A DNA stretch of 13,072 nt from the IMG/VR virus record IMGVR_UViG_2671180695_000008; one strand, given 5' to 3'. Position numbers and translations under genes: made by a program. Positions 2 through 13,072 of this stretch are shown here, piece after piece. A model generated the notes under the pieces. The model made no database searches and was not told the origin of the DNA. It worked only from the letters and a program-made list of their open reading frames with translations. Every line of letters begins with the position of its first letter. Positions within the stretch are counted from its first letter, which is position 1. Source of the DNA: a virus. Its lineage: Duplodnaviria; Heunggongvirae; Uroviricota; Caudoviricetes.

Positions 2-157
2 TTAACCGGTAAACGGGTGGTGTCTGTCCAGAAAGATGGTCGCAGAATTGAATATACGGCGGCTTCTCTGGATGAGCTTAACCGGGCGATCAATGATGCG
101 GAGTCGGTACTGGGGACAACCCGCCGTCGCCGTCGTCCGCTGGGAGTGAGGTTATGA
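2..157 (+). CDS. Head completion protein (lambda gpW-like), C-terminal part; 5' end lies outside the window
   Basis: Frame-2 translation ...GKRVVSVQKDGRRIEYTAASLDELNRAINDAESVLGTTRRRRRPLGVRL* resembles the C-terminus of lambda gpW as recalled (GKRVATVQKDGRRVEFTA...RRRG). Its stop overlaps the portal ATG (ATGA), and it sits directly upstream of the portal as in lambda W-B. Confidence 0.6.
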   Translation, partial: LTGKRVVSVQKDGRRIEYTAASLDELNRAINDAESVLGTTRRRRRPLGVRL

Positions 158-1026
158 AACGAACGCCTGTCCTGATTGATGTGAACGGCGTTCCGCTTCG
201 TGAGAGTCTCAGCTACAACGGGGGCGGTGCAGGATTTGGCGGGCAAATGGCGGAGTGGTTGCCACCGGCGCAGAGTGCCGATGCAGCCCTGCTGCCTGCG
301 TTGCGTCTGGGGAATGCCCGGGCAGATGATCTGGTGCGCAATAACGGGATAGCGGCCAATGCGGTGGCCCTGCATAAGGATCATATTGTCGGGCATATGT
401 TTCTGATCAGCTACCGTCCGAACTGGCGCTGGCTGGGGATGCGGGAGACTGCGGCAAAAAGTTTTGTCGATGAGGTGGAGGCGGCCTGGTCGGAATACGC
501 CGAAGGGATGTTTGGCGAGATCGACGTGGAAGAGAAACGCACGTTTACGGAATTTATTCGTGAAGGTGTGGGCGTTCATGCGTTTAACGGCGAAATCTTT
601 GTGCAGCCGGTCTGGGATACGGAGAGCACGCAACTGTTTCGTACGCGTTTTAAAGCCGTGAGTCCGAAACGGGTGGACACGCCAGGACACGGTATGGGGA
701 ACCGTTTTCTGCGGGCCGGTGTGGAGGTCGATCGATATGGTCGTGCCGTTGCGTACCATATCTGTGAGGATGATTTTCCGTTCTCCGGGAGTGGACGATG
801 GGAACGGATCCCGCGTGAACTTCCCACCGGGCGTCCGGCCATGCTGCATATTTTCGAGCCGGTGGAGGACGGGCAGACCCGTGGGGCTAATCAGTTTTAC
901 AGCGTCATGGAACGGCTGAAGATGCTCGATTCCCTGCAGGCAACACAGCTTCAGTCGGCCATAGTGAAGGCGATTTATGTCTATCATCTCACCGTAGTTG
1001 CCCGCATCGTTCGCCAACTCCACTGA
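154..1026 (+). pseudogene. Portal protein (lambda gpB-like), N-terminal fragment interrupted by an inserted element
   Basis: Translation matches the lambda gpB N-terminal half by recall (GNARADDLVRNNG, FEPVEDGQTRGAN, MLD.LQ.TQLQSAIVKA). Similarity ends after ...SAIVKAIY (codons through 978), followed by 16 unrelated codons (VYHLTVVARIVRQLH) and a stop. The remainder of the portal resumes at 11871. Confidence 0.85.
967..979. other. Candidate attL core (AAGGCGATTTATG) inside the portal coding sequence
   Basis: The same 13-mer with one mismatch (AAGGCGATGTATG) recurs at 11865..11877. Both copies are in the same codon phase of the portal frame, encoding K-A-(I/M)-Y. Confidence 0.65.
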
Positions 1027-1103
1027 AACCCTTGCTGCGTCTGGAATGTCGTTTTCCATGCTTTTGATGACCGTTCATCACCCTTCCAGTTTTTCGCGGT
1101 TTT

Positions 1104-1156
1104 GTGTATTGCAATGTGTATTGCAAATTGGCGATCGGGATGGGTGTGTATTGCAA
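1104..1156. repeat. Three direct copies of GTGTATTGCAA just upstream of int; candidate integrase arm-type binding sites
   Basis: Copies at 1104..1114, 1116..1126 and 1146..1156. Related copies lie at the opposite end of the element (11770..11790). Confidence 0.55.
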
Positions 1157-1174
1157 ATCTCTTGAGGGCTTTTA

Positions 1175-2416: not shown

Positions 2417-2417
2417 T

Positions 2418-2675
2418 ATGGCAATTTATTCTCTTGTTGATGAAAACGATTTGCGCACAATGAAGGACATTGATCGGTTCATTCGTGAAAAAGAGTGCAT
2501 AGCACTTACCACGCTGGCAAACTCAACACGCTGGAAAATGGAGCAGGCAGGTAAATTCCCGCGACGTATCAAGATCGGTGAACGTGCTGCAGGGTATCGA
2601 CTTTCAGAGGTTCAGGCATGGATCCGTGGTGAGTGGCATCCTGGATGGAAACCTGGAAAAACAAAACAGCAATAA
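2418..2675 (+). CDS. alpA: AlpA-family HTH regulator / excisionase-like protein
   Basis: 85 aa; motif ...ALTTLANSTRWKMEQAGKFPRRIKIGERAAGYRLSEVQAWI matches the AlpA (Phage_AlpA) fold pattern. Its start overlaps the int stop, and a strong SD (AGAGGTGG) precedes it. Confidence 0.85.
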   Translation: MAIYSLVDENDLRTMKDIDRFIREKECIALTTLANSTRWKMEQAGKFPRRIKIGERAAGYRLSEVQAWIRGEWHPGWKPGKTKQQ

Positions 2676-2688
2676 CCAGTAAATAATG

Positions 2689-2711
2689 CCCCTCATCACG
2701 AGGGGTTTTTT
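2689..2711 (+). terminator. Rho-independent terminator after alpA
   Basis: Stem CCCCTC (2689..2694) pairs with GAGGGG (2700..2705) around loop ATCAC, followed by TTTTTT (2706..2711). Confidence 0.8.
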
Positions 2712-2731
2712 GTCTATAAGGTAAAAACGCG

Positions 2732-3310
2732 ATGAATAAAAATATTGCTGTGACGGGCAAGGGGTACGCTCGTCCAGTGAAAAAATTCTGCGATATTCGT
2801 GATCTCGTCGTTCTGCGCTTTGATAGTGTGAACGTTCGTGTGGTGTATCTGAACGGCGATCCGTGGTTTGTTGCAAAAGATGTTTGTGCTGCGCTGGAAC
2901 TAACCAATTCGCGTACGGCGTTGCAGATGCTTGATGATGATGAAAAGGGAGTAAATTTAACTTACACCCCAGGAGGAAATCAGAATATGAGAATTATCTC
3001 TGAGTCAGGTTTCTACAAACTAATAGCCCGCAGCCGCAAAGCAACGACGCCTGGCACATTTGCTCATCGTTTCAGTAACTGGGTATTCAGAAATGTGATA
3101 CCAGGTATCAGAAAAACGGGGACTTATGGTATCCCGTGGGGTGCATTACAGGATTTTTCCCGCCGTAAAGAGCAATATCAAATAAGTGCCAGCGAGAAGG
3201 GGAGGGAGCTACAGGCATGTAAGCGCAAAAAGCGTGAGCTGGAGGAAGAAGAAAAAACGCTGATACGTGAATATCAGCCTGAGTTTTACTTTGGTAACCG
3301 CATTCAGTGA
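2732..3310 (+). CDS. Bro-N domain protein (phage antirepressor-like)
   Basis: 192 aa; the segment VRVVYLNGDPWFVAKDVCAALELTNSRTALQMLDDDEKG...ISESGFYKLIARSRKATTPGTFAHRFSNWV has the Bro-N / AntA N-terminal pattern (D/E-PWFVAKDV...L.....A). The C-terminal part is charged and probably coiled. Confidence 0.7.
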   Translation: MNKNIAVTGKGYARPVKKFCDIRDLVVLRFDSVNVRVVYLNGDPWFVAKDVCAALELTNSRTALQMLDDDEKGVNLTYTPGGNQNMRIISESGFYKLIARSRKATTPGTFAHRFSNWVFRNVIPGIRKTGTYGIPWGALQDFSRRKEQYQISASEKGRELQACKRKKRELEEEEKTLIREYQPEFYFGNRIQ

Positions 3311-3340
3311 CAAAACAAAGGCGACCGCAAAAGGGTCGCC
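3311..3340 (-). terminator. Hairpin acting mainly as a minus-strand intrinsic terminator, between the convergent Bro and minus-strand genes
   Basis: Stem GGCGACC (3320..3326) pairs with GGTCGCC (3334..3340) around loop GCAAAAG. On the minus strand it is followed by TTTGTTTTGT (plus 3311..3319). No U-run follows on the plus strand. Confidence 0.6.
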
Positions 3341-3406
3341 AGTGGGAACAAGGGAAAACAAAAGCATCACCAACAATGCCACATTTGCGGCTGGTGGGCA
3401 ATGTGA

Positions 3407-3586
3407 TCAGTCAGATTTGGTTCGTTCCAAGGTTTGCAACGAGAGCTTTTTCCTGTGCTCTTTAAGGAATTTCTCAAGAGCAAACGAACAAGGTGCGAAT
3501 CTTTCTGATTCATGTTCATGCGCTATATTTTTGCGTCGTCTCTTACGAGTTGGTGATGGTGTTTTGGTTGATTCTGTGTCGCTCAT
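3407..3586 (-). CDS. Small basic hypothetical protein (59 aa), absent from the supplied ORF track
   Basis: Translated by hand from the minus strand: MSDTESTKTPSPTRKRRRKNIAHEHESERFAPCSFALEKFLKEHRKKLSLQTLERTKSD*. An AGGA lies 8 nt upstream of the ATG; it follows the 3644..3949 gene and precedes the minus-strand terminator. Confidence 0.45.
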   Translation of the reverse strand: MSDTESTKTPSPTRKRRRKNIAHEHESERFAPCSFALEKFLKEHRKKLSLQTLERTKSD

Positions 3587-3643
3587 GGTGCTGTCCTGTA
3601 AAGCAATGCGCCTGCGTTCCTCAAACTATGGCGCTGATATTGG

Positions 3644-3949
3644 CTATTCATGCTCTTTGACCTTGCGTCGCTGGAGTTCTTCACGCGCGACGGTGACGAG
3701 TTGCCCGATCTCCTCGGCTGCTTTGATGCCGATTTGTTCGACCTTAGCCAGGGCATCCAGTGACGACACAAGGGGATTTTCTCCGCTGCCTTCTGCTTGG
3801 CGGCGGGCTATTTCTCCGCGCATGGCGGTTACGATAAATCCGGCATTGCTTTCACCGTCCAGCTTAACGGATTCCATCCCTTGCATAACATCTAGTGGGA
3901 CTCTGACAGTTGTCAGTTGTGATTTTGCGTTTTTGTTAGCCGTTGCCAT
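3644..3949 (-). CDS. Hypothetical small regulator (possible DNA-binding protein), divergent from the rightward operon
   Basis: 101 aa with a strong SD (TAGGAGTTTCAGAA-ATG on the minus strand). It is transcribed divergently from a palindromic operator region. No family is recognised with confidence; a ribbon-helix-helix-like N-terminus is possible but unverified. Confidence 0.55.
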   Translation of the reverse strand: MATANKNAKSQLTTVRVPLDVMQGMESVKLDGESNAGFIVTAMRGEIARRQAEGSGENPLVSSLDALAKVEQIGIKAAEEIGQLVTVAREELQRRKVKEHE

Positions 3950-3970
3950 TTCTGAAACTCCTAATCATCG

Positions 3971-4048
3971 GTGTGTTTCAGTATACACAAAAAAAGAAAT
4001 ACAAAAAGCCTTGACGTGTGTTTCATGCGCTCATAACATGAAACACAC
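3971..4048. promoter_or_regulatory. Divergent control region with a 12-bp perfect inverted repeat, a third half-site and a candidate rightward promoter
   Basis: GTGTGTTTCATG (4016..4027) and its reverse complement CATGAAACACAC (4037..4048) are separated by 9 bp. A further GTGTGTTTCA half-site lies at 3971..3980. TTGACG (4011..4016), a 17-bp spacer and TAACAT (4034..4039) overlap the palindrome. Confidence 0.55.
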
Positions 4049-4139
4049 CGAAAGGATTGTTGAAATACAAAGAGCAACGCCCCGCAGTGCTGGGAACACA
4101 TACGGGGCGTCTAACCAACAACGTAAACTAGGAGCCGTT

Positions 4140-4337
4140 ATGGTTGCTGTAAATCATATACCACACCTTGTACACACACAAACGGCCTTTGTGTGGCGTT
4201 TTCTGGCACTGAGTGCCGGAGAATCTCAAATCATCCACGTAACCGCCTGGACGGAACGCGAAGCGCGTAGCCGTTGCCCGTCCGGTTGTGTTGCTGTATT
4301 CGCTGCAAAAATCCGCCAGGGAGTGAGTCATGCTTAA
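4140..4337 (+). CDS. Hypothetical small protein (65 aa), possible first gene of the rightward operon
   Basis: ATG preceded by AGGAG at the correct spacing. It shares a frame with a long, compositionally odd ORF (3267..4337) that is otherwise rejected, so coding status is uncertain. Confidence 0.35.
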   Translation: MVAVNHIPHLVHTQTAFVWRFLALSAGESQIIHVTAWTEREARSRCPSGCVAVFAAKIRQGVSHA

Positions 4338-4515
4338 AACCTTCCGTGTATTTGCCCGAGCTGTTAACCCAATAGGCCACACAATTGGTATCGCTCAGAA
4401 TGTGAAGGCTGTTAATGTTCAGACGGCTATTGCTGCGGTGAGAAGCGAATCATCAGAATATGGCTTATCACAAGTCATTATTTCAGCAGTGTATGAATTA
4501 AAAGAGGTGCATTAA
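4330..4515 (+). CDS. Hypothetical protein (61 aa)
   Basis: SD GGAGTGAG upstream. Its stop overlaps the next start (TAATG), suggesting translational coupling. Confidence 0.5.
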   Translation: MLKTFRVFARAVNPIGHTIGIAQNVKAVNVQTAIAAVRSESSEYGLSQVIISAVYELKEVH

Positions 4516-4706
4516 TGCAGGAAATTACATTACACGAAGCCGCTGAACGTGCGCACCAGACAGAAATTATTTGCCGCCTTCTTGAGGTATACCCGAACAA
4601 AATTACAGATGCTGATATATCCGCACTGGCGAGCCTACTGGCGCGTCTTTCGGGAAGTGTCGCTAGTTTTTTGATTGAGGAAGAAAGTAAGCTGGTGGGG
4701 GATTAA
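4515..4706 (+). CDS. Hypothetical protein (63 aa)
   Basis: SD AAGAGG upstream; start is coupled to the preceding stop. Confidence 0.5.
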   Translation: MQEITLHEAAERAHQTEIICRLLEVYPNKITDADISALASLLARLSGSVASFLIEEESKLVGD

Positions 4707-4928
4707 ATGAATACAGAACGGGAAGTCTTTTTTAAATTGTTAGCATGTGCAGAAAGTTCATTAACTTTAAATAATTCAGCAAAAGCAATATTAAATATGT
4801 GGCTTGATTGCATAAATGACAATGAAGATGCAAATATTGCTTATGGCCTGTTGTCACTTATTGATGAATCAGCAGAAAAACTCAATGACGCAATAAATAG
4901 TGCCCTGCTATCAAATAAGTCGAGTTAA
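4707..4928 (+). CDS. Hypothetical protein (73 aa), visibly more AT-rich than its neighbours
   Basis: Starts immediately after the previous stop. Its base composition differs from flanking genes, suggesting a separately acquired cargo gene. Confidence 0.5.
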   Translation: MNTEREVFFKLLACAESSLTLNNSAKAILNMWLDCINDNEDANIAYGLLSLIDESAEKLNDAINSALLSNKSS

Positions 4929-4945
4929 GTCGAGGAATAAATAAT

Positions 4946-5245
4946 ATGGAAATGAAAAATTCTGGCTTTATTGCCAGCGGCCCCGCTCGACCTGAATTTA
5001 TGAACGGCGATATTTACCGCGATAAATACGGCGGCACGGTAACGATTAAAGGCGTGGCAGAACGGCGCATCACTTACCGCCGTGAGGGGTATAGCTATGA
5101 CTGCGTGATGCCTGTTTATCAGTTCCGGCGTGATTTTTCCCTGGTATATGCCGCACCCCGCAGTAAGCCCATCAGCAGGGAAAAAGCGTGGGGAAATATC
5201 CAGAAAATGAAAACCATGATTAACGGATTCAGAGGTAAAAAATGA
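4946..5245 (+). CDS. Hypothetical protein (99 aa)
   Basis: SD GAGGA upstream. Its stop overlaps the primase-helicase start (ATGA), placing it in the replication operon. Confidence 0.55.
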   Translation: MEMKNSGFIASGPARPEFMNGDIYRDKYGGTVTIKGVAERRITYRREGYSYDCVMPVYQFRRDFSLVYAAPRSKPISREKAWGNIQKMKTMINGFRGKK

Positions 5246-6996
5246 AACTGGCACCGAACGTAAAACAGCAGTCACGCGGCATAAAACACAAAGGAACAGA
5301 AGTCATTATTTTTGCGGGTAGTGATGCCTGGGCACACGCGAAACAATGGCAGGAACATGATGCGCGTATGGCCGGAGATAATGAGCCTCCTGTGTGGCTT
5401 GGGGAGCAGCAGCTATCCGAACTGGATAATCTGCAAATTGTGCCGGAAGGCCGAAAATCAGCACGCATATACAGGGCCGGATATCTTGCGCCTGTAATGA
5501 TAAAGGCGATTGGTCAGAAGCTGGCGGCAGCAGGCGTACAGGATGCAAATTTTTATCCTGAGGGTATGCACGGCCAGGAGGTGCAGAACTGGCGCGAATA
5601 TCTGGCCCGTGAACGCCAGAATCTTTCTGATGGTCTGGTCATTGAGCTTCCGGTAAAGCAAAAGGCGCAACTTTCGCAGATGGCGGACAGTGAGCGCGCG
5701 CAGTTGCTTGCCGATCGCTTTGATGGCGTTTGCGTACATCCTGAAAGTGAAATCGTTCACGTATGGCGCGGCGGGGTATGGTGTCCGGTCAGCACAATGG
5801 AACTTAGCCGCGAAATGGTGGCGATCTATTCAGAGCACAGGGCCACTTTCAGCAAGCGCGTAATCAATAACGCCGTGGAAGCGTTAAAAGTTATTGCCGA
5901 ACCAATGGGCGAGCCGTCTGGCGATTTGCTGCCGTTCGCCAATGGTGCGCTTGACCTGAAAACGGGGGAATTTTCCCCGCACACGCCGGAGAACTGGATC
6001 ACCACGCACAACGGCATTGAGTACACGCCACCAGCACCAGGGGAGAACATCCGCGATAACGCGCCAAACTTTCATAAATGGCTTGAGCACGCAGCCGGAA
6101 AAGACCCGCGCAAGATGATGCGTATATGTGCCGCGCTGTACATGATTATGGCGAACCGGTACGACTGGCAGATGTTTATTGAGGCCACCGGAGACGGCGG
6201 GAGCGGTAAAAGTACATTCACACACATAGCCAGCCTTCTGGCAGGGAAACAGAACACGGTAAGCGCTGAAATGACATCGCTTGATGATGCTGGTGGACGT
6301 GCGCAGGTTGTCGGGAGTCGTCTTATCGTCCTGGCTGACCAGCCGAAATATACAGGCGAAGGAACGGGCATCAAGAAAATCACAGGCGGCGACCCCGTGG
6401 AAATTAACCCGAAATATGAAAAGCGTTTCACGGCGGTAATCAGGGCGGTGGTGCTGGCGACCAACAACAACCCGATGATATTCACCGAACGGGCCGGAGG
6501 TGTGGCACGTCGTCGCGTGATTTTCCGTTTCGACAATATCGTCAGTGAGGCCGAAAAAGACAGGGAGCTACCGGAAAAGATTGCGGCTGAAATCCCCGTT
6601 ATTATCCGCCGATTGCTGGCGAACTTTACCGACCCTGAGAAGGCACGGGCTTTACTACTGGAACAGCGTGACGGTGATGAAGCACTGGCAATAAAGCAAC
6701 AGACGGATCCGGTTATTGAGTTTTGCCAGTTCCTGAATTTTCTGGAGGAAGCGCGCGGCCTGATGATGGGTGGCGGTGGTGATTCAGTGAAGTACACGAC
6801 CAGGAACAGCCTTTACCGCGTCTATCTGGCGTTTATGGCATACGCGGGCAGGAGCAAACCGCTAAACGTGGCTGAGTTCAGCAAGGCCATGAAGCCAGCG
6901 GCGAAAGTTTACGGGCATGAATATATTACGCGAAAAGTTAAGGGAGTAACGCAGACCAACGCAATTACAACAGACGATTGCGACGCGTTTTTATAA
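5242..6996 (+). CDS. Replication protein: P4-alpha / D5-type primase-helicase (SF3 P-loop NTPase)
   Basis: 584 aa. Walker A motif ATGDGGSGKST, a D5_N-like segment LPFANGALDLKTGEF and a following NTPase core resemble the C-terminal helicase region of P4-family primases. The N-terminal ~150 aa are not confidently assigned. An iteron array follows immediately. Confidence 0.85.
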   Translation: MKLAPNVKQQSRGIKHKGTEVIIFAGSDAWAHAKQWQEHDARMAGDNEPPVWLGEQQLSELDNLQIVPEGRKSARIYRAGYLAPVMIKAIGQKLAAAGVQDANFYPEGMHGQEVQNWREYLARERQNLSDGLVIELPVKQKAQLSQMADSERAQLLADRFDGVCVHPESEIVHVWRGGVWCPVSTMELSREMVAIYSEHRATFSKRVINNAVEALKVIAEPMGEPSGDLLPFANGALDLKTGEFSPHTPENWITTHNGIEYTPPAPGENIRDNAPNFHKWLEHAAGKDPRKMMRICAALYMIMANRYDWQMFIEATGDGGSGKSTFTHIASLLAGKQNTVSAEMTSLDDAGGRAQVVGSRLIVLADQPKYTGEGTGIKKITGGDPVEINPKYEKRFTAVIRAVVLATNNNPMIFTERAGGVARRRVIFRFDNIVSEAEKDRELPEKIAAEIPVIIRRLLANFTDPEKARALLLEQRDGDEALAIKQQTDPVIEFCQFLNFLEEARGLMMGGGGDSVKYTTRNSLYRVYLAFMAYAGRSKPLNVAEFSKAMKPAAKVYGHEYITRKVKGVTQTNAITTDDCDAFL

Positions 6997-7010
6997 TTTT
7001 TTGTAAAAGC

Positions 7011-7232
7011 CATCTACCCCATCTACCTGAACAAAATAAACGCATATTATTCAACATGATAAGTGGGTATAGGGCTAGGTAGAAGGCTAATAAAAGCTCT
7101 CTACCTCTTCTACCTGATTTTATCAGTTTCAGGTAGCAGGGTAGACGGCAGGTAGAGGAGTCAAAAAGCTATCTACCCGCTGAAAGCCGCGCCATTACTG
7201 ACATGATGAGCATTCGGGTAGATGGGTAGAGG
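7011..7232. repeat. Iteron array; candidate replication origin
   Basis: About 11 copies of the core TCTACC / GGTAGA in both orientations within ~220 bp (for example CATCTACCCCATCTACC, CTCTACCTCTTCTACC, GGTAGCAGGGTAGACGGCAGGTAGAGG, GGTAGATGGGTAGAGG). It lies directly downstream of the primase-helicase gene in an otherwise non-coding stretch. Confidence 0.7.
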
Positions 7233-7280
7233 GGGGGAGGCACAACTAAAAACTTTTTAAACGAGGGGGGGTGAAAATAA

Positions 7281-7595
7281 ATGCGCATACATAAAAATCA
7301 CTTAACAAACATGCCAGCCGAAAACATGAATCAGGGGCGACAAATGACCAAAATTCGCAGAGACAGAACACAGGCAAAATATAAAGCGTTAGACATGACA
7401 GAGCTTTCCTTAAAGGTGGCAATCAAAGCGATAGACCACCACACACGGGCAGGATACGCGAAGGAACATCCCGACCTGATAAGCGCATTCATGACCACAG
7501 CAGCGGCAAACTTTGCCACGCTGACAGAACGGGAGATTGCCGAAGCGGAACAGGTGACAACCATCAATGTTAAAACCGGAGAGCAGACAGCATGA
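7281..7595 (+). CDS. Hypothetical protein (104 aa)
   Basis: G-rich SD (GAGGGGGGG) upstream. Its stop overlaps the next start (ATGA). The start codon is uncertain because internal Met codons exist. Confidence 0.5.
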   Translation: MRIHKNHLTNMPAENMNQGRQMTKIRRDRTQAKYKALDMTELSLKVAIKAIDHHTRAGYAKEHPDLISAFMTTAAANFATLTEREIAEAEQVTTINVKTGEQTA

Positions 7596-8014
7596 CAGCA
7601 CAGATAGCGGCTTACGGGCGGCTGGTGGCTGACCCGCAGTTAAAGACCACCAGCAAAGGGACACAAATGGCGATGGCGAGTATGGCGGTTCCCCTGCCGT
7701 GCAGCCAGGCAGATGACGGAACGGCGACGATGTGGTTATCCGTCCTGGCGTTTGGCAGACAGGCCGACGCACTGGCAAAACACCACAAAGGCGAACTGGT
7801 GAGCGTGGCGGGTAACATGCAGGTAAGCCAGTGGACAGGCCAGAACGGCGAAACGCGGCGGGGCTGGCAGGTTATCGCAGACAGCGTAATCAGTGCGCGA
7901 ACGGCGCGACCGGGCGGCAAAAAAGGCCAGCAGGGGCAGGCCACTGACGCACTGAACAGGGCAAAACAACAGTCGGGGAATGATGATCCGTACGGCGATA
8001 ATATACCGTTTTAA
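7592..8014 (+). CDS. ssb: Single-stranded DNA-binding protein-like (OB fold, C-terminal ...NIPF tail)
   Basis: 140 aa with the pattern GRLVADPQL...G...A.......W.SV.AFG..A..LAK..KGELV.V.G......W....G..R.....ADSV, then a Gly/Gln-rich linker ending DDPYGDNIPF. This resembles the SSB OB core and its acidic ...DDDIPF protein-interaction tail. Confidence 0.7.
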   Translation: MTAQIAAYGRLVADPQLKTTSKGTQMAMASMAVPLPCSQADDGTATMWLSVLAFGRQADALAKHHKGELVSVAGNMQVSQWTGQNGETRRGWQVIADSVISARTARPGGKKGQQGQATDALNRAKQQSGNDDPYGDNIPF

Positions 8015-8021
8015 ATTCTGC

Positions 8022-8050
8022 AAACAAAAAGATGCCGGAAAAAAATAGAT
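8022..8050. other. 11-bp-stem hairpin in the SSB / capsid intergenic region (possible terminator or regulatory structure)
   Basis: ATGCCGGAAAA (8022..8032) pairs with TTTTCCGGCAT (8040..8050) around a 7-nt loop. No clean U-run follows on the plus strand, so terminator function is uncertain. Confidence 0.4.
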
Positions 8051-8225
8051 TTTCCGGCATGCTACATAAATCCCGACCAAAGGAAGTAAATACATTAACA
8101 CGAATTATCAGCACTGAAGTTGTTACGGCATATTTTATACAACATTGCACTTGGTTGCATGTATTCGCATAGCAGACATCGGTAATAGAATATATTCACA
8201 ATTATTTGTAATGAATGTAAAGAGG

Positions 8226-9272
8226 ATGAGTATGGTTGATTTATATTCGCCTACACAGCTTGTGCAGGTGGCTAATGCTGAAGATGTGCAAAAAAAATTA
8301 AATGCGTTGTTTACCAGTTTGTTTTTCACTCGCTCGGTAATGTTTGAATCGAGAGACATTATTCTTGATACGATCGACGATCCAAATATCCCGATCGCGG
8401 CGTTTTGCTCTCCTATGGTGGGCAGTAAAGTTTCACGAGATGAGGGATACGAATCAAAAACAATTCGTCCAGGTTATATGAAGCCGAAAAGCAGCATTGA
8501 TCCAAATAAGTTAGCTGTGCGCCCTGCTGGTGTGTCACCTGAGCAATACAATGCTTTTGGGGCGCGTAATATTAAAGTTAAACAGGCGATTGTAAATCAG
8601 GCTAAAGCTATTCGTGCACGTATTGAATGGCTTGCTGTTCAGGCAATCACAACGGGGAAAAATATCATTGAGGGCGATGGTATTGAACGTTATGAGCTGG
8701 ACTGGAATATAAAACCACAAAATATCATCACTCAGTCTGGCGGTACTGAGTGGTCAGGTAAGGATAAAGAAACTTTTGATCCAAATGATGATATTGAGAG
8801 CTACGCAGAATTTAGTGAGGGCGTCACTAATATCATCATTATGGGTGGTAATGTATGGAAGAAATACCGTTCATTCAGAGCGATAAAAGAGGCTTTGGAT
8901 ACCCGTCGTGGTTCTAATTCCGAACTGGAAACGGCCCTTAAAGACCTTGGTGATTCGGTGAGTTTTAAAGGGTATATGGGCGATGTTGCGATTGTTGTTT
9001 ACAGCGGGCGTTATACCGACGAGGACGGAACAGAAAAACATTTCCTTGATCCTGATTTGATGGTGCTTGGCAATACGGCTCTTCAGGGGATTGTCGCCTA
9101 TGGCGGTATTCAGGATCCGGAGCTAATCCGAATGGGGCTGACTAAAGCCGAACTTGCACCGAAAAACTATATTGTGCCTGGTGATCCGGCTATTGAATAT
9201 GTGCAGACACATTCAGCACCACAGCCAATACCGGCCCGCATCAATCGTTTTGTTACCGTTCGCATTGGCTAA
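8226..9272 (+). CDS. Major capsid protein (lambda gpE-like)
   Basis: Motifs NIITQSGGTEWS, DTRRGSNSELETA, GDVAIVVYSG and MVLGNT match lambda E as recalled. The chosen start MSMVDLYSPTQL parallels lambda MSMYTTAQL and has SD AGAGGA; the ORF track's upstream start at 8145 is less likely. Confidence 0.85.
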   Translation: MSMVDLYSPTQLVQVANAEDVQKKLNALFTSLFFTRSVMFESRDIILDTIDDPNIPIAAFCSPMVGSKVSRDEGYESKTIRPGYMKPKSSIDPNKLAVRPAGVSPEQYNAFGARNIKVKQAIVNQAKAIRARIEWLAVQAITTGKNIIEGDGIERYELDWNIKPQNIITQSGGTEWSGKDKETFDPNDDIESYAEFSEGVTNIIIMGGNVWKKYRSFRAIKEALDTRRGSNSELETALKDLGDSVSFKGYMGDVAIVVYSGRYTDEDGTEKHFLDPDLMVLGNTALQGIVAYGGIQDPELIRMGLTKAELAPKNYIVPGDPAIEYVQTHSAPQPIPARINRFVTVRIG

Positions 9273-9281
9273 GGGGGAGCA

Positions 9282-9623
9282 ATGGCTACTCATTACACTG
9301 AACTCATGGCTGGCACTGAAGCACTGGTGACTACGCTGGGGATATTTTCAGCTAATAAAGGGGTAATTCCTGCATTTACGCCACTGATGCAGGAAGATGC
9401 AACAGGTGCACTGGTGGTATGGGATGGTTCGAGCGTAGGTAAAGCGGTTTATGTTTCCGCTGTACAAATCGACACAGCGAAAAAAACACAGGCACAGGTT
9501 TATAAGACAGGTGTTTTAAATGTTGATGCTCTGAACTGGCCTGAGTCTGTAAAAGAACTGTCGGCAAAGGTTGCCGCGTTTGTTGGCTCAGGTATTTCTG
9601 TTCAGCCGCTGGCTCGTGTGTAA
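9282..9623 (+). CDS. Head decoration protein (lambda gpD-like)
   Basis: 113 aa; the pattern TPLM....G.LV.WDG...G.AV.......T.....YK.G......L.WPE matches lambda D as recalled. SD GGGGGAG upstream. It follows the capsid gene, the reverse of the lambda D-E order. Confidence 0.75.
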   Translation: MATHYTELMAGTEALVTTLGIFSANKGVIPAFTPLMQEDATGALVVWDGSSVGKAVYVSAVQIDTAKKTQAQVYKTGVLNVDALNWPESVKELSAKVAAFVGSGISVQPLARV

Positions 9624-9634
9624 AGGGGGATACA

Positions 9635-10018
9635 ATGCAGAATCATTACAATGACCTTAAGCCAATTGCCGAAATGATGTATCCGGATCCAGCAGTAGAG
9701 GAATTAAAGGCTATTGCTGACAAAATGCGTTTAAGTGAACGCCTTGTTGATATGAATCAGGTGATGGAACTTACTACCCTTAGCCGTCGCACATTGCTAA
9801 ACCTTGAGGCTCGCGGAGAGTTCCCCGAACGCGTACAGGTTACGGAAGGGCGTAAGGCCTGGTATTTAAGTGAAGTGATCGACTGGATAAACAATATTCC
9901 TCGATCTTCTGAATATTGCCGCGTACCTGTCCCAAAAAAGCCAGATGCGGCGCTATGCCTCAAGATTGAGCGTGTACGTCGCAATGCACGGGATGGTCGC
10001 TATAAGTTGATTGGTTGA
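9635..10018 (+). CDS. AlpA/MerR-like HTH domain protein (second AlpA-family member)
   Basis: 127 aa; the segment VDMNQVMELTTLSRRTLLNLEARGEFPERVQVTEGRKAWYLSEVIDWI fits the AlpA-type HTH pattern. It has an N-terminal extension and a basic C-terminus, a GGGGGA SD upstream, and lies immediately upstream of the cos site. Confidence 0.6.
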   Translation: MQNHYNDLKPIAEMMYPDPAVEELKAIADKMRLSERLVDMNQVMELTTLSRRTLLNLEARGEFPERVQVTEGRKAWYLSEVIDWINNIPRSSEYCRVPVPKKPDAALCLKIERVRRNARDGRYKLIG

Positions 10019-10029
10019 TGAAATTAGGG

Positions 10030-10108
10030 CCCGTTCTGGCTGGCGGGTCCTTTCCGGCGATCCGGTAGGCTACGGGGCGGCGACCTCGCGGGTTTTCGCT
10101 ATTTATGA
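10030..10108. other. Lambda-type cos site (cosQ-proximal sequence plus cosN with the 12-nt cohesive end GGGCGGCGACCT)
   Basis: 10072..10108 ACGGGGCGGCGACCTCGCGGGTTTTCGCTATTTATGA is identical to the recalled lambda cosN / left-end sequence (cohesive end at 10075..10086). The upstream GGGTCCTTTCCGGCGATCCGGTAGGCTACG closely matches the recalled lambda right-end sequence. Downstream cosB-like sequence has diverged, and a Nu1-like gene follows. Confidence 0.85.
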
Positions 10109-10219
10109 GCCTTTTTCGGGTGCTGGTGGTGGTTTTGTTGTTCGCTCTATCTCTATGAATAAAAAGGAAAAGATAAAGCCAATACACCAACCTGAAACAT
10201 TACTTAAGTGGGGATATTG

Positions 10220-10762
10220 ATGAAATCGCACCTGATGAACAAAAAAAACATGGCGCAAAGCTGCCATGTAAGTGCGACAGCGTTCGACAAGTGGGGAGTG
10301 ACTCCCGTTGAACGTAAAGGCCGCGAGGCGTTTTATGATGTTGCCAGCGTAATAGACAATCGGGTTAGCAATGCAATTAACCAGATTACAGACGACAAAG
10401 GCGAGATTGATGATGATGAACTCCTACGAGTCAGGATCAGATTGCTGACAGCACAGGCAGAGGCGCAGGAGCTTAAAAACGAGCGCGAACGCGGCGACGT
10501 TATTGATACCGCGTTTTGTATATACGTGCTTTCAAAATTGGCGAGTCAGATTTCTTCAATCATGGACAGCCTGCCGCTTGCCATGACAAGGAAGTTTCCC
10601 GACATGAAGCCGTCTATGCTGGATGGACTGAAAAAAGAAGTTATCAGAGCCTGTAACGCATGCGCAAAACTTGACGAAAACATACCGCTGATGCTGTCCG
10701 ATTATCTGATGGAAACTGCCGGAAACGTACCGGATAAGTTGCAGCCGAATAAAGATAAGTAA
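10220..10762 (+). CDS. Terminase small subunit (lambda Nu1-like)
   Basis: Matches lambda Nu1 by recall (RLTRAQADAQELKNARD...ETAFC.FVLSRIAGEIASILDGLPL...RFPE compared with RLLTAQAEAQELKNERERGDVIDTAFCIYVLSKLASQISSIMDSLPLAMTRKFPD). Start is uncertain: ATG at 10220 (GGGGA SD) is chosen, with alternatives GTG 10208 and ATG 10235. It sits downstream of cos as in lambda. Confidence 0.85.
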   Translation: MKSHLMNKKNMAQSCHVSATAFDKWGVTPVERKGREAFYDVASVIDNRVSNAINQITDDKGEIDDDELLRVRIRLLTAQAEAQELKNERERGDVIDTAFCIYVLSKLASQISSIMDSLPLAMTRKFPDMKPSMLDGLKKEVIRACNACAKLDENIPLMLSDYLMETAGNVPDKLQPNKDK

Positions 10763-10773
10763 CGTAGTACGCT

Positions 10774-11055
10774 ATGACTGAATCCGAAATACTGCGATTA
10801 ATCCGCCGTGCTTGTGGAATCAGCAAGCAGCATGACGAACAGGCCACGCAGCCGGACAGCGTGACCGCAGATAATTATGTGCGTGTAGTGGCTGAGGTGA
10901 TGCGCCGTGACGGTATTGAGCTTAACGGCGTGGATATGCGCAACATACGAACAAGAGTCCTTGAGTTGCTGGCATATCGTCGCCGTTCTCAACAACGGAG
11001 GGAGAGCGCGAAAAACACTTACCAGTGGAAGAAGCCGGAACGATTGCGGCGGTAA
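10774..11055 (+). CDS. Hypothetical basic protein (93 aa) in the position where lambda encodes the large terminase
   Basis: ORF starts 11 nt after the TerS stop and is Arg-rich. No convincing family match; no obvious SD, so possibly translationally coupled. Confidence 0.45.
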   Translation: MTESEILRLIRRACGISKQHDEQATQPDSVTADNYVRVVAEVMRRDGIELNGVDMRNIRTRVLELLAYRRRSQQRRESAKNTYQWKKPERLRR

Positions 11056-11070
11056 CTTGCTGATATTCCC

Positions 11071-11094
11071 GATAACGCAAAATTGCGCTGGCTG
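11071..11094. repeat. Direct repeat GATAACGC-N5-TTGCGCTGGCTG (copy 1; copy 2 at 11257..11280)
   Basis: The two 24-bp copies differ at 3 positions and lie 186 bp apart in the non-coding right arm. Each is followed by a TTGCA/TGCAA-type near-palindrome. Confidence 0.5.
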
Positions 11095-11306
11095 ACTTGT
11101 TGCATTGCAAAAAGTTAAGCAGGAAGGCACGGCCTGTAAGATGGGATGCAGTAAGTAGTTCAAGGCTACCTTGTGCTGGCACGCACAGTTAAGCCGTCGG
11201 TGCTGGATATCCCCCACTGGGGGAAAAGCTGGCTACATCCCTCACATCTGAGGACTGATAACGCGACATTGCGCTGGCTGGCAAAGTGCAAAATTGCACG
11301 ATGGCC

Positions 11307-11468
11307 TAACCCATTGATTATTTCGAAAACCTGCAATGCAGGAAATCGGGGAAGTAAGCCTAAGCTATTGATTGTTTCGAAAACCCCCATTGGGGGATGT
11401 CGGGAAAGTAAGACTAACCCATTGATTCTTCCACAATCCTCAATTTGAGGAGGCCGGAACGTCTACAT
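11307..11468. repeat. Tandem ~54-bp repeat (3 units) each containing a 5-bp-stem, 3-nt-loop hairpin with covarying stems; candidate structured RNA or recognition array
   Basis: Units 11307..11360, 11361..11414 and 11415..11468 share TAA(C/G)C(C/T)ATTGATT...TTCGAAAAC and CGGG.AAGTAAG flanks. Internal hairpins are CCTGC-AAT-GCAGG (11330..11342), CCCCC-ATT-GGGGG (11384..11396) and CCTCA-ATT-TGAGG (11438..11450). The third unit is more diverged. Confidence 0.6.
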
Positions 11469-11769
11469 AGCTGCATCGCCGTAATGATGATTCAGCCCAC
11501 CAGCCAAATCAGCACAGCAACGACAGAATAGCCCGACACAGAAAAACCACGAATATGGGGTTTTTGTTATGACATGGTCATGATGACCACTCATACAAAA
11601 CAGGTAAAGCCCACCAGCCTGATTAAAGGTTAACCGGAAAAAAGCCAGGTATCCAATCTCGATATGGGGATCCCTATATCGACATTAACGCCCACTAAAA
11701 CTGTGCATATATGCATAGAAAAAGCATCCACCAGCTTTATGACGGATGCCGCTCATCTTATAAATAATC

Positions 11770-11790
11770 GTGTATTGCAGTGTGTATTGC
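11770..11790. repeat. Two direct copies of GTGTATTGC(A) near the right junction; candidate integrase arm-type sites
   Basis: GTGTATTGCA at 11770..11779 and GTGTATTGC at 11782..11790, in the same orientation as the three copies beside int. An AT-rich tract lies between them and the att core. Confidence 0.5.
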
Positions 11791-11864
11791 GACTCCTTTA
11801 AACGATAGGTCTGAGCATTCGTAATGTACTGTTTTTAAATTTTATTTTTTCCTGTCTTTTCATA

Positions 11865-11877
11865 AAGGCGATGTATG
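11865..11877. other. Candidate attR core (AAGGCGATGTATG)
   Basis: Matches 967..979 at 12 of 13 positions. Portal homology resumes here (IKAMYAATIE...). Confidence 0.65.
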
Positions 11878-12644
11878 CAGCGACGATTGAAAGTGACCTT
11901 GATACCGAAAAGGCCTTTGAATATATCGCCGGTGCGCCGCAGGGGCAGAAGGATAATCCGCTTATTAATATTCTGGATAAGTTCTCCACCTGGTATGACA
12001 CGAATAGCGTGACGCTGGGTGGTGTCAAAATTCCGCACCTTTTCCCCGGTGATGATCTGAAACTTCAGACCGCGCAGGATTCAGACAATGGATTTTCGGC
12101 GCTTGAACAGGCGCTGCTGCGGTATATCGCCGCCGGTCTTGGCGTTTCCTACGAACAGTTGTCCCGTGATTACTCGAAGGTCAGTTATTCAAGTGCCCGC
12201 GCATCCGCCAATGAGTCGTGGCGCTATTTTATGGGGCGGCGAAAATTTATTGCGTCCCGGCTGGCCACGCAGATGTTTTCCTGCTGGCTGGAAGAGGCAC
12301 TTCTTCGGGGGATTATTCGTCCGCCACGGGCACGTTTTGATTTTTATCAGGCGCGATCAGCCTGGTCACGGGCTGAGTGGATTGGAGCCGGAAGAATGGC
12401 CATTGACGGGCTCAAGGAGGTTCAGGAATCAGTGATGCGCATTGAGGCCGGACTGAGCACGTATGAGAAAGAGCTGGCGCTGATGGGCGAGGATTATCAG
12501 GACATTTTCCGCCAGCAGGTCAGGGAATCTGCAGAGCGGGAAAAAGCCGGACTCTCACGTCCGGTGTGGATAGCGCAGGCGTATCAGCAGAAGATAGCGG
12601 AGAGTCGCAGGCCGGAAGAGGAGACAACACCACGTGAGACGTAA
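11871..12644 (+). pseudogene. Portal protein (lambda gpB-like), C-terminal fragment downstream of the insertion
   Basis: Translation MYAATIESDLDTEKAFEYI...LGGVKIPHLFPGDDLKLQTAQDSDNGFSALEQALLRYIAAGLGVSYEQLSRDYSKVSYSSARASANESWRYFMGRRKF...WIGAGRMAIDGLKEVQESVMRIEAGLSTYEKE matches the lambda gpB C-terminal half by recall. The ORF begins at a fortuitous in-frame ATG, and similarity starts at about 11862. Confidence 0.85.
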
Positions 12645-13072
12645 TCTTTCACACATTATTGCCGCAGCATTCAATGAACCGCTGCTTCTGGAGCCCGCCT
12701 ATGCGCGGGTTTTCTTTTGCGCGCTCGGGCGCGAGATGGGGGCAGCAAGTCTTTCGGTACCACAACAGCAGGTACAGCTTGATGCTCCCGGAATGCTGGC
12801 TGAAACGGACGAGTACATGGCCGGAGGTAAACGACCGGCCCGTGTTTACCGGGTGGTGAACGGTATTGCGGTACTGCCGGTGACCGGCACGCTGGTGCAC
12901 CGGCTGGGGGGGATGCGGCCATTTTCCGGAATGACTGGCTATGACGGCATTGTCGCCTGTCTTCAGCAGGCAATGGCAGATAGCCAGGTGCGGGGCATAC
13001 TGCTGGACATTGACAGTCCGGGCGGGCAGGCCGCCGGCGCGTTTGACTGCGCTGACATGATTTACCGCCTCC
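12634..13072 (+). CDS. Head maturation protease / scaffold-processing protein (lambda gpC-like, S49 family), N-terminal part; 3' end outside the window
   Basis: Hand translation from GTG 12634: (M)RRNLSHIIAAAFNEPLLLEPAYARVFFCALG...RVYRVVNGIAVLPVTGTLVHRLGGMRPFSGMTGYDGIVACLQQAMADSQVRGILLDIDSPGG matches lambda C as recalled (AFNEPLMLEPAYARVFF...GIAVLPVSGTL...GMTGY...LLD.D.PGG). Its start overlaps the portal stop as in lambda B-C. Confidence 0.8.
   Translation, partial: MRRNLSHIIAAAFNEPLLLEPAYARVFFCALGREMGAASLSVPQQQVQLDAPGMLAETDEYMAGGKRPARVYRVVNGIAVLPVTGTLVHRLGGMRPFSGMTGYDGIVACLQQAMADSQVRGILLDIDSPGGQAAGAFDCADMIYRL

What the first reader, a model, noticed from the sequence alone, without database searches (positions are those of the whole stretch)
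8226..9623. Satellite-borne capsid and decoration genes in E-D order, without portal, scaffold or protease
Carrying only the shell-forming proteins suggests the element specifies capsid geometry, probably smaller to suit a ~11 kb genome, while borrowing the helper's portal, protease/scaffold and tails. The inverted order relative to lambda (D then E) indicates an independent arrangement rather than a copied lambda block.
Basis: partly seen in the sequence, partly recalled or inferred. Interest (0 to 1): 0.75.

Follow-up and report, generated by a model that had tools for sequence, protein, structure and literature searches.

The report
Satellite's own capsid gene pair
A 10.9-kb phage satellite that is already catalogued in E. 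coli sits inside the portal gene of a lambda-like prophage and carries its own major-capsid and decoration genes; the pair is real and strongly conserved, but it was already described and nothing shows that it makes smaller heads.

Summary
Window 8232-9272 encodes a full-length lambda-gpE-type major capsid protein (MCP), and 9282-9623 a gpD-type decoration protein (Dec). No portal, protease or scaffold gene lies in the element.

The element (967-11877, 10,898 bp) is a helper-embedded PICI. It is inserted in the portal gene of a lambdoid prophage at the published site B:Phage_portal_2:241. Near-identical copies (99.8-99.9%) are listed in Tommasini et al. 2023. An MCP-Dec pair in E. coli PICIs was reported in 2018 for EcCICFT073 (c1499/c1500).

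What I add:
- In my sample the pair belongs to a satellite-only lineage. It is 35-47% (MCP) and 26-40% (Dec) identical to the sampled phage and helper copies.
- The order is MCP then Dec in 12 of 12 satellites, and Dec then MCP in 8 of 8 phages.
- The two genes co-diverge and are under strong purifying selection (MCP dN/dS 0.02).
- The helpers keep their own D and E genes.

Smaller capsids are unsupported. [quoted passage not shown] Those islands, however, carried markers in c1499 or c1501.

Verdict: real, already known, function still open.

The parts
154..979 (+). 5' part of the helper prophage portal gene (lambda B homologue), cut by the insertion
   Evidence: Pfam Phage_portal_2 positions 2-242 of 354, E=7e-63. 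97-98% nt identity to the intact portal genes of the CFT073 prophages up to base 979.
967..979 (+). attL core (aaggcgatttatg). The identity block aaggcgat is the published crossover block.
   Evidence: The flank alignments to intact portal genes overlap by 13 nt. The sequence is shown. 'aaggcgat' is given for B_Phage_portal_2_241 in the Tommasini 2023 supplement.
1104..1155 (+). Three GTGTATTGCA motifs just inside attL, probably integrase arm sites
   Evidence: Five matches in the window, all next to the att sites. They match the 'doubled DNA motif' described for HE-PICI attP in PMC10111431.
1175..2416 (+). Satellite tyrosine integrase
   Evidence: Pfam Arm-DNA-bind_3 and Phage_integrase
2418..2675 (+). 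AlpA regulator / excision factor
   Evidence: Pfam Phage_AlpA, 5e-14
2732..3310 (+). Bro-N domain protein (variable 'Bro zone')
   Evidence: Pfam Bro-N, 5e-20
5242..6996 (+). D5_N/DUF5906 primase-helicase (pri)
   Evidence: Pfam D5_N, DUF5906 and Pox_D5; PHROG 864, 2e-175. The region is 87% nt identical to EcCICFT073.
7005..7233 (.). Replication origin: TCTACC(C/T) iterons in both orientations, 3' of pri
   Evidence: the repeat finder families D1-D4 and I1-I11. The position matches the PICI ori described in PMC6092414.
7592..8014 (+). Single-strand DNA-binding protein
   Evidence: Pfam SSB, 5.5e-16
8232..9272 (+). Satellite major capsid protein, gpE/HK97 fold, 346 aa (the finding gives 8226 as the start)
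   Evidence: dN/dS 0.024 against the copy in L021.
9282..9623 (+). Satellite head decoration protein, gpD/SHP family, 113 aa
   Evidence: dN/dS 0.09-0.13. It co-diverges with the MCP.
9635..10018 (+). Second AlpA-family HTH protein, conserved directly after Dec in this sub-lineage
   Evidence: Pfam Phage_AlpA, 1.3e-8; PHROG 2790, 2e-48. The same position is occupied in L008-L011, in L012 and in L021-L022.
10058..10110 (+). cos site: cosN with the lambda cohesive-end sequence GGGCGGCGACCT (10075-10086), followed by a divergent cosB
   Evidence: Exact match. Alignment with the lambda left end, two helpers and EcCICFT073.
10220..10762 (+). Full-length Nu1-like small terminase subunit; not an RppA homologue
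   Evidence: Pfam Phage_Nu1, 3e-24; PHROG 57, 4e-51. 37% identical to lambda Nu1 over 180 aa; no blastp match to EcCICFT073 RppA.
10774..11055 (+). Conserved 93-aa PICI protein of unknown function
   Evidence: PHROG 1561, 1e-55. 76% identical to the last gene of EcCICFT073.
11304..11465 (+). Three tandem 54-bp units, each with a short palindrome whose arms co-vary between units; role unknown
   Evidence: the repeat finder family D1. Weak similarity to the end of EcCICFT073.
11865..11877 (+). attR core (aaggcgatgtatg)
11865..12644 (+). 3' part of the helper portal gene. The helper protease gene C starts at about 12640 and runs off the window.
   Evidence: Pfam Phage_portal_2 positions 238-354, 4e-30. 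S49 protease tblastn match at 12640-13071.

Best explanation
The two genes are the capsid module of a Gram-negative phage-inducible chromosomal island (PICI). This copy is of the helper-embedded kind, inserted in the portal gene of a lambdoid prophage.

Shown here:
- The MCP is a complete gpE-type shell subunit and the Dec is its gpD-type partner.
- Both belong to a lineage found only in satellites in my sample.
- They are inherited as a fixed MCP-then-Dec unit.
- Both are kept by strong purifying selection.

Inferred mechanism:
- After induction the genes are expressed, either from the satellite's own late unit or by read-through of the co-oriented helper late transcript.
- The satellite MCP then assembles, alone or mixed with the helper's gpE, on the helper's portal, Nu3 scaffold and C protease, into heads of normal lambda size.
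- The cognate Dec trimers cement the lattice.
- Satellite concatemers, about four genomes (43.6 kb), are packaged from the satellite's own cos by helper TerL, recruited by the satellite's Nu1-like TerS.
- The pair would thus give the satellite a shell supply that does not depend on which helper it meets. The same satellite occurs in helpers whose E proteins are only 61% identical to each other.
- This supply would be redundant with the helper's own E and D under laboratory conditions, which would explain the null deletion phenotypes.
For: Identity of the proteins.

Collinearity with gpE across the whole length, with only short indels (1-6 columns).

A satellite-only clade:
- The best phage in 50,697 records is 42% identical.
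- The NJ tree of 109 homologues has one basal split.
- 12 satellite contexts against 8 phage contexts separate with 200/200 (MCP) and 198/200 (Dec) bootstraps.

Cognate pair: MCP and Dec pairwise distances correlate at r=0.92 within satellites.

Functional constraint:
- MCP shows 23 synonymous against 2 non-synonymous codon differences, dN/dS 0.024. Dec is at 0.09-0.13. Both are lower than TerS at 0.15-0.20.
- The genes are intact in five further genera.
- 395 of 5426 complete E. coli genomes carry the pair at 80% coverage or more.

Helper independence: the 99.9%-identical satellite lies in a lambda-type helper (L001) and in a phage-21-type helper (L002). Their E proteins are 61% identical, and both are 41-43% identical to the satellite MCP.

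Relatives add further head-assembly genes after Dec: an S49 protease in L016 and L018, and a scaffold-C-terminus-like c1501 in EcCICFT073. This argues that the module acts in assembly.

Normal head size: phage-sized DNA for EcCICFT073 (PMC6092414), and 4 x 10,898 bp is 90% of lambda.
Against: - No particle data exist for this element or for any PICI of the TerS-bearing sub-lineage.
- Nobody has shown that a PICI gpE-type protein is present in virions.
- In EcCICFT073, deleting c1499 or c1500 left transfer unchanged, so the proteins are not required there. A purely redundant role fits poorly with dN/dS of 0.02.
- A related satellite with the same kind of pair lies inside a P2-type prophage, whose capsid, scaffold and portal belong to different families. 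That is hard to reconcile with assembly on helper parts, unless that satellite uses another helper.
Confidence: 0.4

Rival explanations
1. Capsid size redirection. The satellite MCP, with Dec, forces small T=3 or T=4 heads that fit one or two 10.9-kb genomes and exclude the helper genome, as Ccm of SaPIbov5 does.
For: - Precedents exist. SaPIbov5 Ccm is a capsid homologue that changes head size. PmCI172 carries a capsid homologue and makes small heads (PMC6893505 and PMC6092414).
- The SatelliteFinder paper describes the PICI 'capsid morphogenesis' gene as thought to modify capsid morphology.
- The published negative is weakened. Every marked EcCICFT073 derivative was c1499::cat or c1501::tetA, and c1501 looks like the C-terminus of the helper scaffold/protease. 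No island with the whole module intact was tested.
- One genome is about 80% of a T=3 capacity and two are about 104% of a T=4 capacity. This is my own estimate, scaling volume from lambda.
Against: - The c1501::tetA island keeps MCP and Dec intact, which is the window's gene content. It gave no PICI-monomer band, and packaged DNA was reported as phage-sized.
- The MCP has no added or lost structural segment compared with gpE.
- 4 x 10.9 kb fits a normal head.
- The element has no scaffold-like gene that could set curvature.
Confidence: 0.15
2. Interference or defence. The satellite MCP and Dec act as poison subunits or decoys that spoil head assembly of competing, non-helper lambdoid phages. 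They would protect the host and the satellite rather than build satellite particles.
For: - PICIs commonly carry interference functions.
- Strong conservation combined with no effect on transfer fits a role outside the satellite's own packaging.
- 42% identity to gpE might allow mixed, defective lattices. This is inference.
Against: - Deleting c1499 or c1500 did not relieve interference with lambda.
- Deleting rppA alone restored lambda plaquing almost fully (PMC6739421).
- A poison would not need a co-evolving decoration partner, nor the protease and scaffold genes seen in relatives.
Confidence: 0.15
3. A spare copy for the embedded state. The module was captured from a helper as a backup for late genes disturbed by the insertion, as Tommasini et al. 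proposed for satellites inserted in gene E.
For: - Close relatives of this module occur in satellites inserted in the helper capsid gene E (L010, L011).
Against: - This satellite interrupts the portal gene, not E, and carries no portal.
- The same module, 97% nt identical, is in ordinary chromosomal PICIs at tRNA-Pro (L021, L022) and in EcCICFT073.
- It is only 41-43% identical to either helper's E, with the reversed gene order. It is not a recent capture from a helper.
Confidence: 0.1
4. A decaying remnant with no present function.
For: Null deletion phenotypes in EcCICFT073.
Against: - dN/dS is 0.02-0.13, with synonymous sites saturated between genera while the ORFs stay intact.
- About 98% of the member sequences in the close protein clusters are full length (P0001 and P0002 against P0013, P0035 and P0052).
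Confidence: 0.03

Closest known systems
Helper-embedded PICIs at site B:Phage_portal_2:241 (Tommasini, Mageeney & Williams 2023, PMC10111431)
   Same: It is the same element. Genomes that carry copies 99.8-99.9% identical to the window's (CP011416, CP006834; hits H13 and H21) are listed there as Eco2613.11 and Eco4623.11.B_Phage_portal_2_241. Length is 10,898 bp (CP011416) or 10,897 bp (CP006834) and the att block is aaggcgat. It is co-oriented with the helper late genes and shows the four zones: integration, Bro, replication, late.
   Different: Nothing in structure. That paper does not analyse the ancestry of, or selection on, the capsid and decoration genes. It suggests that late genes are captured from helpers, which does not fit this pair (41-43% identity, reversed order).
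EcCICFT073 c1499 (capsid, PDB 3BQW) and c1500 (head decoration) (Fillol-Salom et al. 2018, PMC6092414)
   Same: Same MCP-then-Dec order, same position after pri-ori-ssb and before cos and the packaging gene, same satellite clade. The replication module is 87% nt identical.
   Different: Only 55% (MCP) and 54% (Dec) identical. After Dec, EcCICFT073 has c1501 (scaffold-C-terminus-like) and RppA. The window has a second AlpA-like gene and a full Nu1-like TerS. EcCICFT073 is chromosomal, not embedded in a helper.
Lambda gpE / gpD and phage 21 capsid / SHP
   Same: Same Pfam families and fold, collinear over the full length. Dec matches SHP (1TD0) and gpD.
   Different: 41-43% and 38-45% identity. 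The gene order is reversed. No portal-protease-scaffold genes lie upstream. It forms a separate clade.
SaPIbov5 Ccm (capsid homologue that redirects phi12 head shape)
   Same: A satellite-encoded homologue of the helper's major capsid protein (PMC6893505).
   Different: Ccm is 23% identical to its helper's capsid protein, has no decoration partner and has a demonstrated size effect. No size effect is known here, and the only related data are negative.
Capsid-forming PICIs (EcCIEDL933; Alqurainy et al., bioRxiv 2022.09.08.507074)
   Same: The satellite carries its own capsid protein. The int-alpA-rep backbone is shared with classical PICIs.
   Different: cf-PICIs also encode portal, protease, head-tail connectors, HNH and TerL, and make their own small heads. 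None of those genes is present here. Capsid trees separate PICI from cf-PICI (PMC10085698).
P4 Sid / Psu
   Same: A satellite that supplies capsid-surface proteins; Psu decorates and stabilises heads (my own knowledge).
   Different: Sid and Psu are unrelated to gpE and gpD. P4 encodes no major capsid protein.

Membership tests
Gram-negative PICI (Fillol-Salom 2018) | int at the left end, followed by a co-oriented alpA | tested here: met
   int 1175-2416 and AlpA 2418-2675, both on the + strand
Gram-negative PICI (Fillol-Salom 2018) | Own primase/replicase with an iteron origin just 3' of it | tested here: met
   D5_N primase 5242-6996. Iterons at 7005-7233.
Gram-negative PICI (Fillol-Salom 2018) | Small size (about 10-20 kb), no tail or lysis genes | tested here: met
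   10,898 bp. No ORF gives a tail or lysis match.
Gram-negative PICI (Fillol-Salom 2018) | Carries the helper's cos site and/or a TerS-type packaging gene | tested here: met
   cosN GGGCGGCGACCT at 10075, identical to the helpers and to lambda. Nu1-like TerS at 10220-10762.
Gram-negative PICI (Fillol-Salom 2018) | Induced and transferred at high frequency by a helper phage | not testable with these tools
   Needs induction and transduction assays
[quoted passage not shown] | Inserted in a lambda-B-type portal gene at about profile position 241, co-oriented with it | tested here: met
   The portal fragments end and start at Pfam positions 242 and 238. All core genes are on the same strand.
[quoted passage not shown] | att identity block aaggcgat; doubled DNA motif in the attP arms | tested here: met
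   Blocks at 967-974 and 11865-11872. GTGTATTGCA three times and twice next to the att sites.
[quoted passage not shown] | Integrase in the HE-PICI clade | tested here: inconclusive
   I built no integrase tree. Records with 99.8-99.9% identical elements are listed in the paper's table under this site.
Phage_cap_E (lambda gpE) capsid family | Full-length match to the family profile, and the HK97 fold | tested here: met
   PF03864, 142 bits against a cut-off of 22.9. 3BQW and 7VI9 by sequence and by fold. The model is only moderate (pLDDT 62).
Phage_cap_E (lambda gpE) capsid family | Assembles into an icosahedral shell | not testable with these tools
   Needs expression, EM or particle proteomics
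HDPD (lambda gpD / SHP) decoration family | Profile match above the cut-off | tested here: met
   PF02924, 56.4 bits against a cut-off of 29.1. 1TD0 at 4e-16.
HDPD (lambda gpD / SHP) decoration family | Trimer that binds the three-fold sites of the expanded shell | not testable with these tools
   Needs structural or biochemical work
Capsid-forming PICI | Own portal, protease, head-tail connectors and TerL | tested here: not met
   None found in the element
Size-redirecting capsid homologue (Ccm-like) | Produces satellite-sized heads and packaged DNA | not testable with these tools
   Only indirect evidence: negative for EcCICFT073, and from marker-disrupted islands

The most novel reading that the evidence does not exclude
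Classical Gram-negative PICIs are partly capsid-forming. A satellite-only lineage of MCP plus Dec, joined in some members by a scaffold-like gene or a protease, would build the satellite's own shells on helper portals. That would fill the gap between PICIs that steal whole heads and cf-PICIs that steal only tails. The published 'dispensable, no size change' result would then be an artefact, because the resistance markers were placed in c1499 or c1501, inside the module.
Probability: 0.25. Interest if true: 0.6.

Novelty: already known. Interest (0 to 1): 0.3.

Why it matters
The capsid gene is treated as a core component of enterobacterial PICIs, and its role has never been shown.

This analysis shows three things:
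- The gene and its decoration partner form an old lineage, found only in satellites in my sample, rather than recent loot from helpers.
- The pair is among the most constrained genes of the late module.
- The only negative experiments used islands with a marker inside the module.

That turns a vague 'capsid morphogenesis' label into a testable question: do these satellites build, or contribute to, their own shells? The answer bears on how PICIs spread virulence and resistance genes among E. coli.

For the scan itself, the finding is a correct reading of a feature that is already described.

Tried and rejected
- The genome-contig scan with a 16-sequence MCP alignment gave only 4 loci, because its two peptide patterns were too narrow. 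I took the wider context sample from the look-up of encoding contigs instead.
- Rfam at gathering threshold found nothing in the window. This includes the C4 and isrK immunity RNAs reported for some PICIs.
- The promoter/terminator scan gave fewer promoter-like sites than the shuffles. It found one weak site (8164-8191) before the MCP. The hairpin after ssb (8032-8060) has its T-run on the minus strand. So I could not define the transcription unit.
- The AlphaFold model is only moderate (pLDDT 62; the N-arm and E-loop are below 50). It confirms the fold but cannot address capsomer contacts.
- I looked for homologues of Nu3, the gpC C-terminus, c1501, RppA, PerC and the 68-aa ORF that precedes the MCP in EcCICFT073. 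None is in the element.
- A second cos site, as in EcCICFT073: only one cohesive-end match is present.
- Literature searches for later work on the PICI capsid genes found nothing after 2023 that tests their function.
- I considered and rejected the idea that the pair is the helper's displaced D/E. The helpers have their own, and the satellite copies are 41-45% identical to them.
Full report
**What is in the window**

All core genes of the element lie on the + strand; one small ORF (3644-3949, YlcI/YnfO-like) is on the minus strand. Bases 154-979 and 11865-12644 are the two halves of one lambda-family portal gene. They cover Pfam Phage_portal_2 positions 2-242 and 238-354. Both halves are 97-98% identical to the intact portal genes of the two lambdoid prophages of E. 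coli CFT073.

The two alignments overlap by 13 nt: aaggcgatttatg at 967-979 and aaggcgatgtatg at 11865-11877. A 10,898-bp element is therefore inserted in the portal gene.

In order, the element carries:
- a tyrosine integrase, AlpA and a Bro-N protein, then several small ORFs;
- a D5-type primase, an iteron origin (7005-7233) and SSB;
- the two genes of the finding;
- a second AlpA-like gene;
- a cos site with the lambda cohesive end GGGCGGCGACCT at 10075;
- a full-length Nu1-like small terminase;
- a conserved 93-aa protein.

**The observation**

The ORF ending at 9272 is a complete gpE-type major capsid protein (MCP).
- Pfam Phage_cap_E gives 2.9e-41 over almost the whole profile.
- PDB 3BQW gives 1e-121 and lambda gpE gives 9e-78.
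- An AlphaFold model (pLDDT 62) finds the same two structures first.

The ORF at 9282-9623 is a gpD/SHP-type decoration protein (Dec).

The start is better placed at 8232 than at 8226. This follows from the position of the Shine-Dalgarno sequence, and it agrees with RefSeq and with the identical 346-aa protein cluster.

No portal, protease or scaffold gene is in the element.

**What the element is**

A megablast against 5426 complete E. coli genomes finds 53 with the whole element. In the two I opened, it lies in the portal gene of a lambdoid prophage. Each helper's own protease, D, E, FI, FII and tail genes follow immediately (L001, L002).

This arrangement is published. Tommasini, Mageeney and Williams (2023, PMC10111431) named such elements helper-embedded PICIs. 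Their supplement lists this element at site B:Phage_portal_2:241, with the att block aaggcgat. The entries include CP011416.1/3698288-3709185 and CP006834.2/1830842-1841738, which are my hits H13 and H21. The GTGTATTGCA motifs next to both att sites match their 'doubled motif'.

**The capsid pair is also known**

Fillol-Salom et al. (2018, PMC6092414) reported that the model island EcCICFT073 encodes a capsid protein (c1499) and a head decoration protein (c1500).
- Packaged DNA was phage-sized.
- Deleting either gene changed neither transfer nor interference with lambda.

I located that island (L005 27931 to about 38900). It has the same MCP-then-Dec order. PDB 3BQW is its capsid protein.

Tommasini et al. 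note capsid genes in 21 of 29 reference PICIs. The SatelliteFinder paper treats 'capsid morphogenesis' as a core PICI component.

**What I could add**

First, ancestry.
- The window MCP is 55% identical to c1499 but only 41-43% to lambda E and to the E proteins of both helpers. Dec is 54% identical to c1500 and 38-45% to the D proteins.
- No phage among 50,697 records exceeds 42% identity.
- A tree of 109 homologues from a 5.8-billion-protein search has one basal split.
- I then read the genomic context of members on both sides. All 12 contexts on the window's side are PICI-like, with MCP followed by Dec. They comprise the window, EcCICFT073, Kluyvera, Superficieibacter, Cedecea, Kosakonia, Salmonella, Edwardsiella, Lelliottia, two metagenomic contigs and an E. 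coli tRNA-Pro island.
- All 8 contexts on the other side are phages or helpers, with portal, S49 protease, Dec and then MCP.
- The satellite/phage split has 200/200 (MCP) and 198/200 (Dec) NJ bootstrap support.
- The two proteins co-diverge, r=0.92 within satellites.

The sample is small, so an MCP-then-Dec phage may still exist.

Second, constraint.
- Against a 97%-identical copy in a chromosomal tRNA-Pro PICI (L021), the MCP has 23 synonymous and 2 non-synonymous codon differences, dN/dS 0.024.
- Dec is at 0.09-0.13 and TerS at 0.15-0.20.
- Between genera, synonymous sites are saturated while the ORFs stay intact.
- The pair is present in 395 of 5426 genomes, far more than the 53 with this backbone. 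It is a module shared among PICIs with different integrases and replicases.

Third, form. The satellite MCPs are collinear with gpE, with only short indels (1-6 columns, the longest at the extreme N-terminus). Nothing is added or lost.

Fourth, helper independence. The same satellite lies in a lambda-type helper (L001) and in a phage-21-type helper (L002; the window's flanks are of this type). Their E proteins are 61% identical to each other.

**How it most likely works**

The pair is a working structural module, and that much is well supported. The rest is inference.

I think the MCP assembles, alone or mixed with gpE, on the helper's portal, scaffold and protease into heads of normal size. 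Its own Dec then cements them. Concatemers of about four genomes (43.6 kb, 90% of lambda) are packaged from the satellite cos.

This would give a shell supply that does not depend on the helper type, and it would be redundant in the laboratory. I put this at 0.4.

Relatives place more head-assembly genes right after Dec:
- an S49 protease in two fis-site PICIs (L016, L018);
- in EcCICFT073, c1501, a 137-aa protein. c1501 matches the C-terminal end of the helper protease/scaffold gene product (PHROG 53 positions 495-567, 1e-8; 36% identity to residues 416-493 of the EC28-type gpC, 5e-9).

**The size-redirection reading**

It is not supported, but it is not closed either.

Against it:
- the phage-sized DNA;
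- no monomer band from the c1501::tetA island, which keeps MCP and Dec intact and so mirrors the window's gene content;
- no structural novelty in the protein;
- no scaffold-like gene here.

For it:
- the Ccm and PmCI172 precedents;
- a caveat I noticed: by the strain names in Table 1, every marked EcCICFT073 derivative carried its marker in c1499 or in c1501. The whole module was therefore never tested intact. The figure showing the marker positions is not held, so this rests on the notation.

I put size redirection at 0.15. Interference against other phages is at 0.15, a spare copy for the embedded state at 0.10, and a dead remnant at 0.03.

**Verdict**

The finding is a correct reading of the sequence. 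Most of its interpretation stands. The functional claim is untested, and the whole feature is already in the literature. Novelty: already known. Interest: 0.3.

The most novel reading left open is that classical PICIs are partly capsid-forming. I give it a probability of about 0.25.

Noticed in passing
window 154-979 and 11865-12644: The satellite interrupts the helper's portal gene. The helper cannot make portal protein, and so cannot make functional proheads, until the satellite excises. The satellite is co-oriented with the helper late operon, so helper late transcription could read into it. This is the published HE-PICI configuration.
   Followed up: yes
window 10058-10762: cosN is identical to lambda and to the helpers, followed by a divergent cosB and a full-length Nu1-like TerS (37% to lambda Nu1 over 180 aa). 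There is no RppA homologue. This PICI probably recruits helper TerL through its own TerS rather than through the RppA mechanism shown for EcCICFT073.
   Followed up: partly
L005 37084-37497 (EcCICFT073 c1501): The unannotated gene right after the decoration gene resembles the C-terminal end of the helper protease/scaffold protein (gpC/Nu3 region). It could be a competing scaffold, in the manner of SaPI1 CpmB. The tetA marker used in the 2018 and 2019 experiments is named c1501::tetA and the cat marker c1499::cat, so the capsid module was never tested intact.
   Followed up: partly
L016 10001-13337 and L018 10001-14078: Two PICIs next to fis carry MCP, Dec and an S49 head protease in that order (the reverse of lambda C-D-E), then a small gene: scaffold-like in L018, with only a weak TerS-like N-terminal match in L016. 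L018 also has a Nu1-like gene. They hold a fuller head-gene set than classical PICIs but still have no portal.
   Followed up: partly
L013 3502-15403 and L012: A Salmonella PICI with a gpE-type MCP, Dec and AlpA is inserted in the large-terminase gene (gpP) of a P2-type prophage. That prophage's own capsid (PF05125), scaffold (gpO) and portal (PF04860) belong to other families. The same PICI occurs in a second prophage context (L012). It also carries a 521-534-aa protein of unknown function (PHROG 3654).
   Followed up: partly
window 11304-11465: Three tandem 54-bp units. Each holds a short palindrome whose two arms change together between units (CTGCA/TGCAG, CCCCA/TGGGG, CTCAA/TTGAG). This suggests a repeated hairpin or a dimer-binding site. 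There is weak similarity to the end of EcCICFT073 and no Rfam match.
   Followed up: no
window 11071-11094 and 11257-11280: Two copies of GATAACGC(A/G)A(A/C)ATTGCGCTGGCTG, 186 bp apart, downstream of the last gene. Purpose unknown.
   Followed up: no
window 7005-7233: TCTACC(C/T) iterons in direct and inverted orientation just 3' of the primase gene. This is the expected PICI replication origin.
   Followed up: yes
window 1104-1155 and 11770-11791: GTGTATTGCA occurs three times inside attL and twice inside attR. These are probably integrase arm-binding sites, the 'doubled motif' of HE-PICIs.
   Followed up: partly
P0005 and P0077: Two database proteins of 463 and 470 aa combine Phage_cap_E and HDPD in one chain. 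They may be MCP-Dec fusions or read-through or sequencing artefacts on short contigs.
   Followed up: no
L021 and L022 (E. coli tRNA-Pro site): The same late module (MCP-Dec-AlpA-like-TerS-93 aa; the MCP-Dec segment is 97% nt identical in L021) sits in ordinary chromosomal PICIs with a different integrase. L021 also has a RepA-type helicase instead of the primase. The late module is exchanged among PICI backbones.
   Followed up: yes
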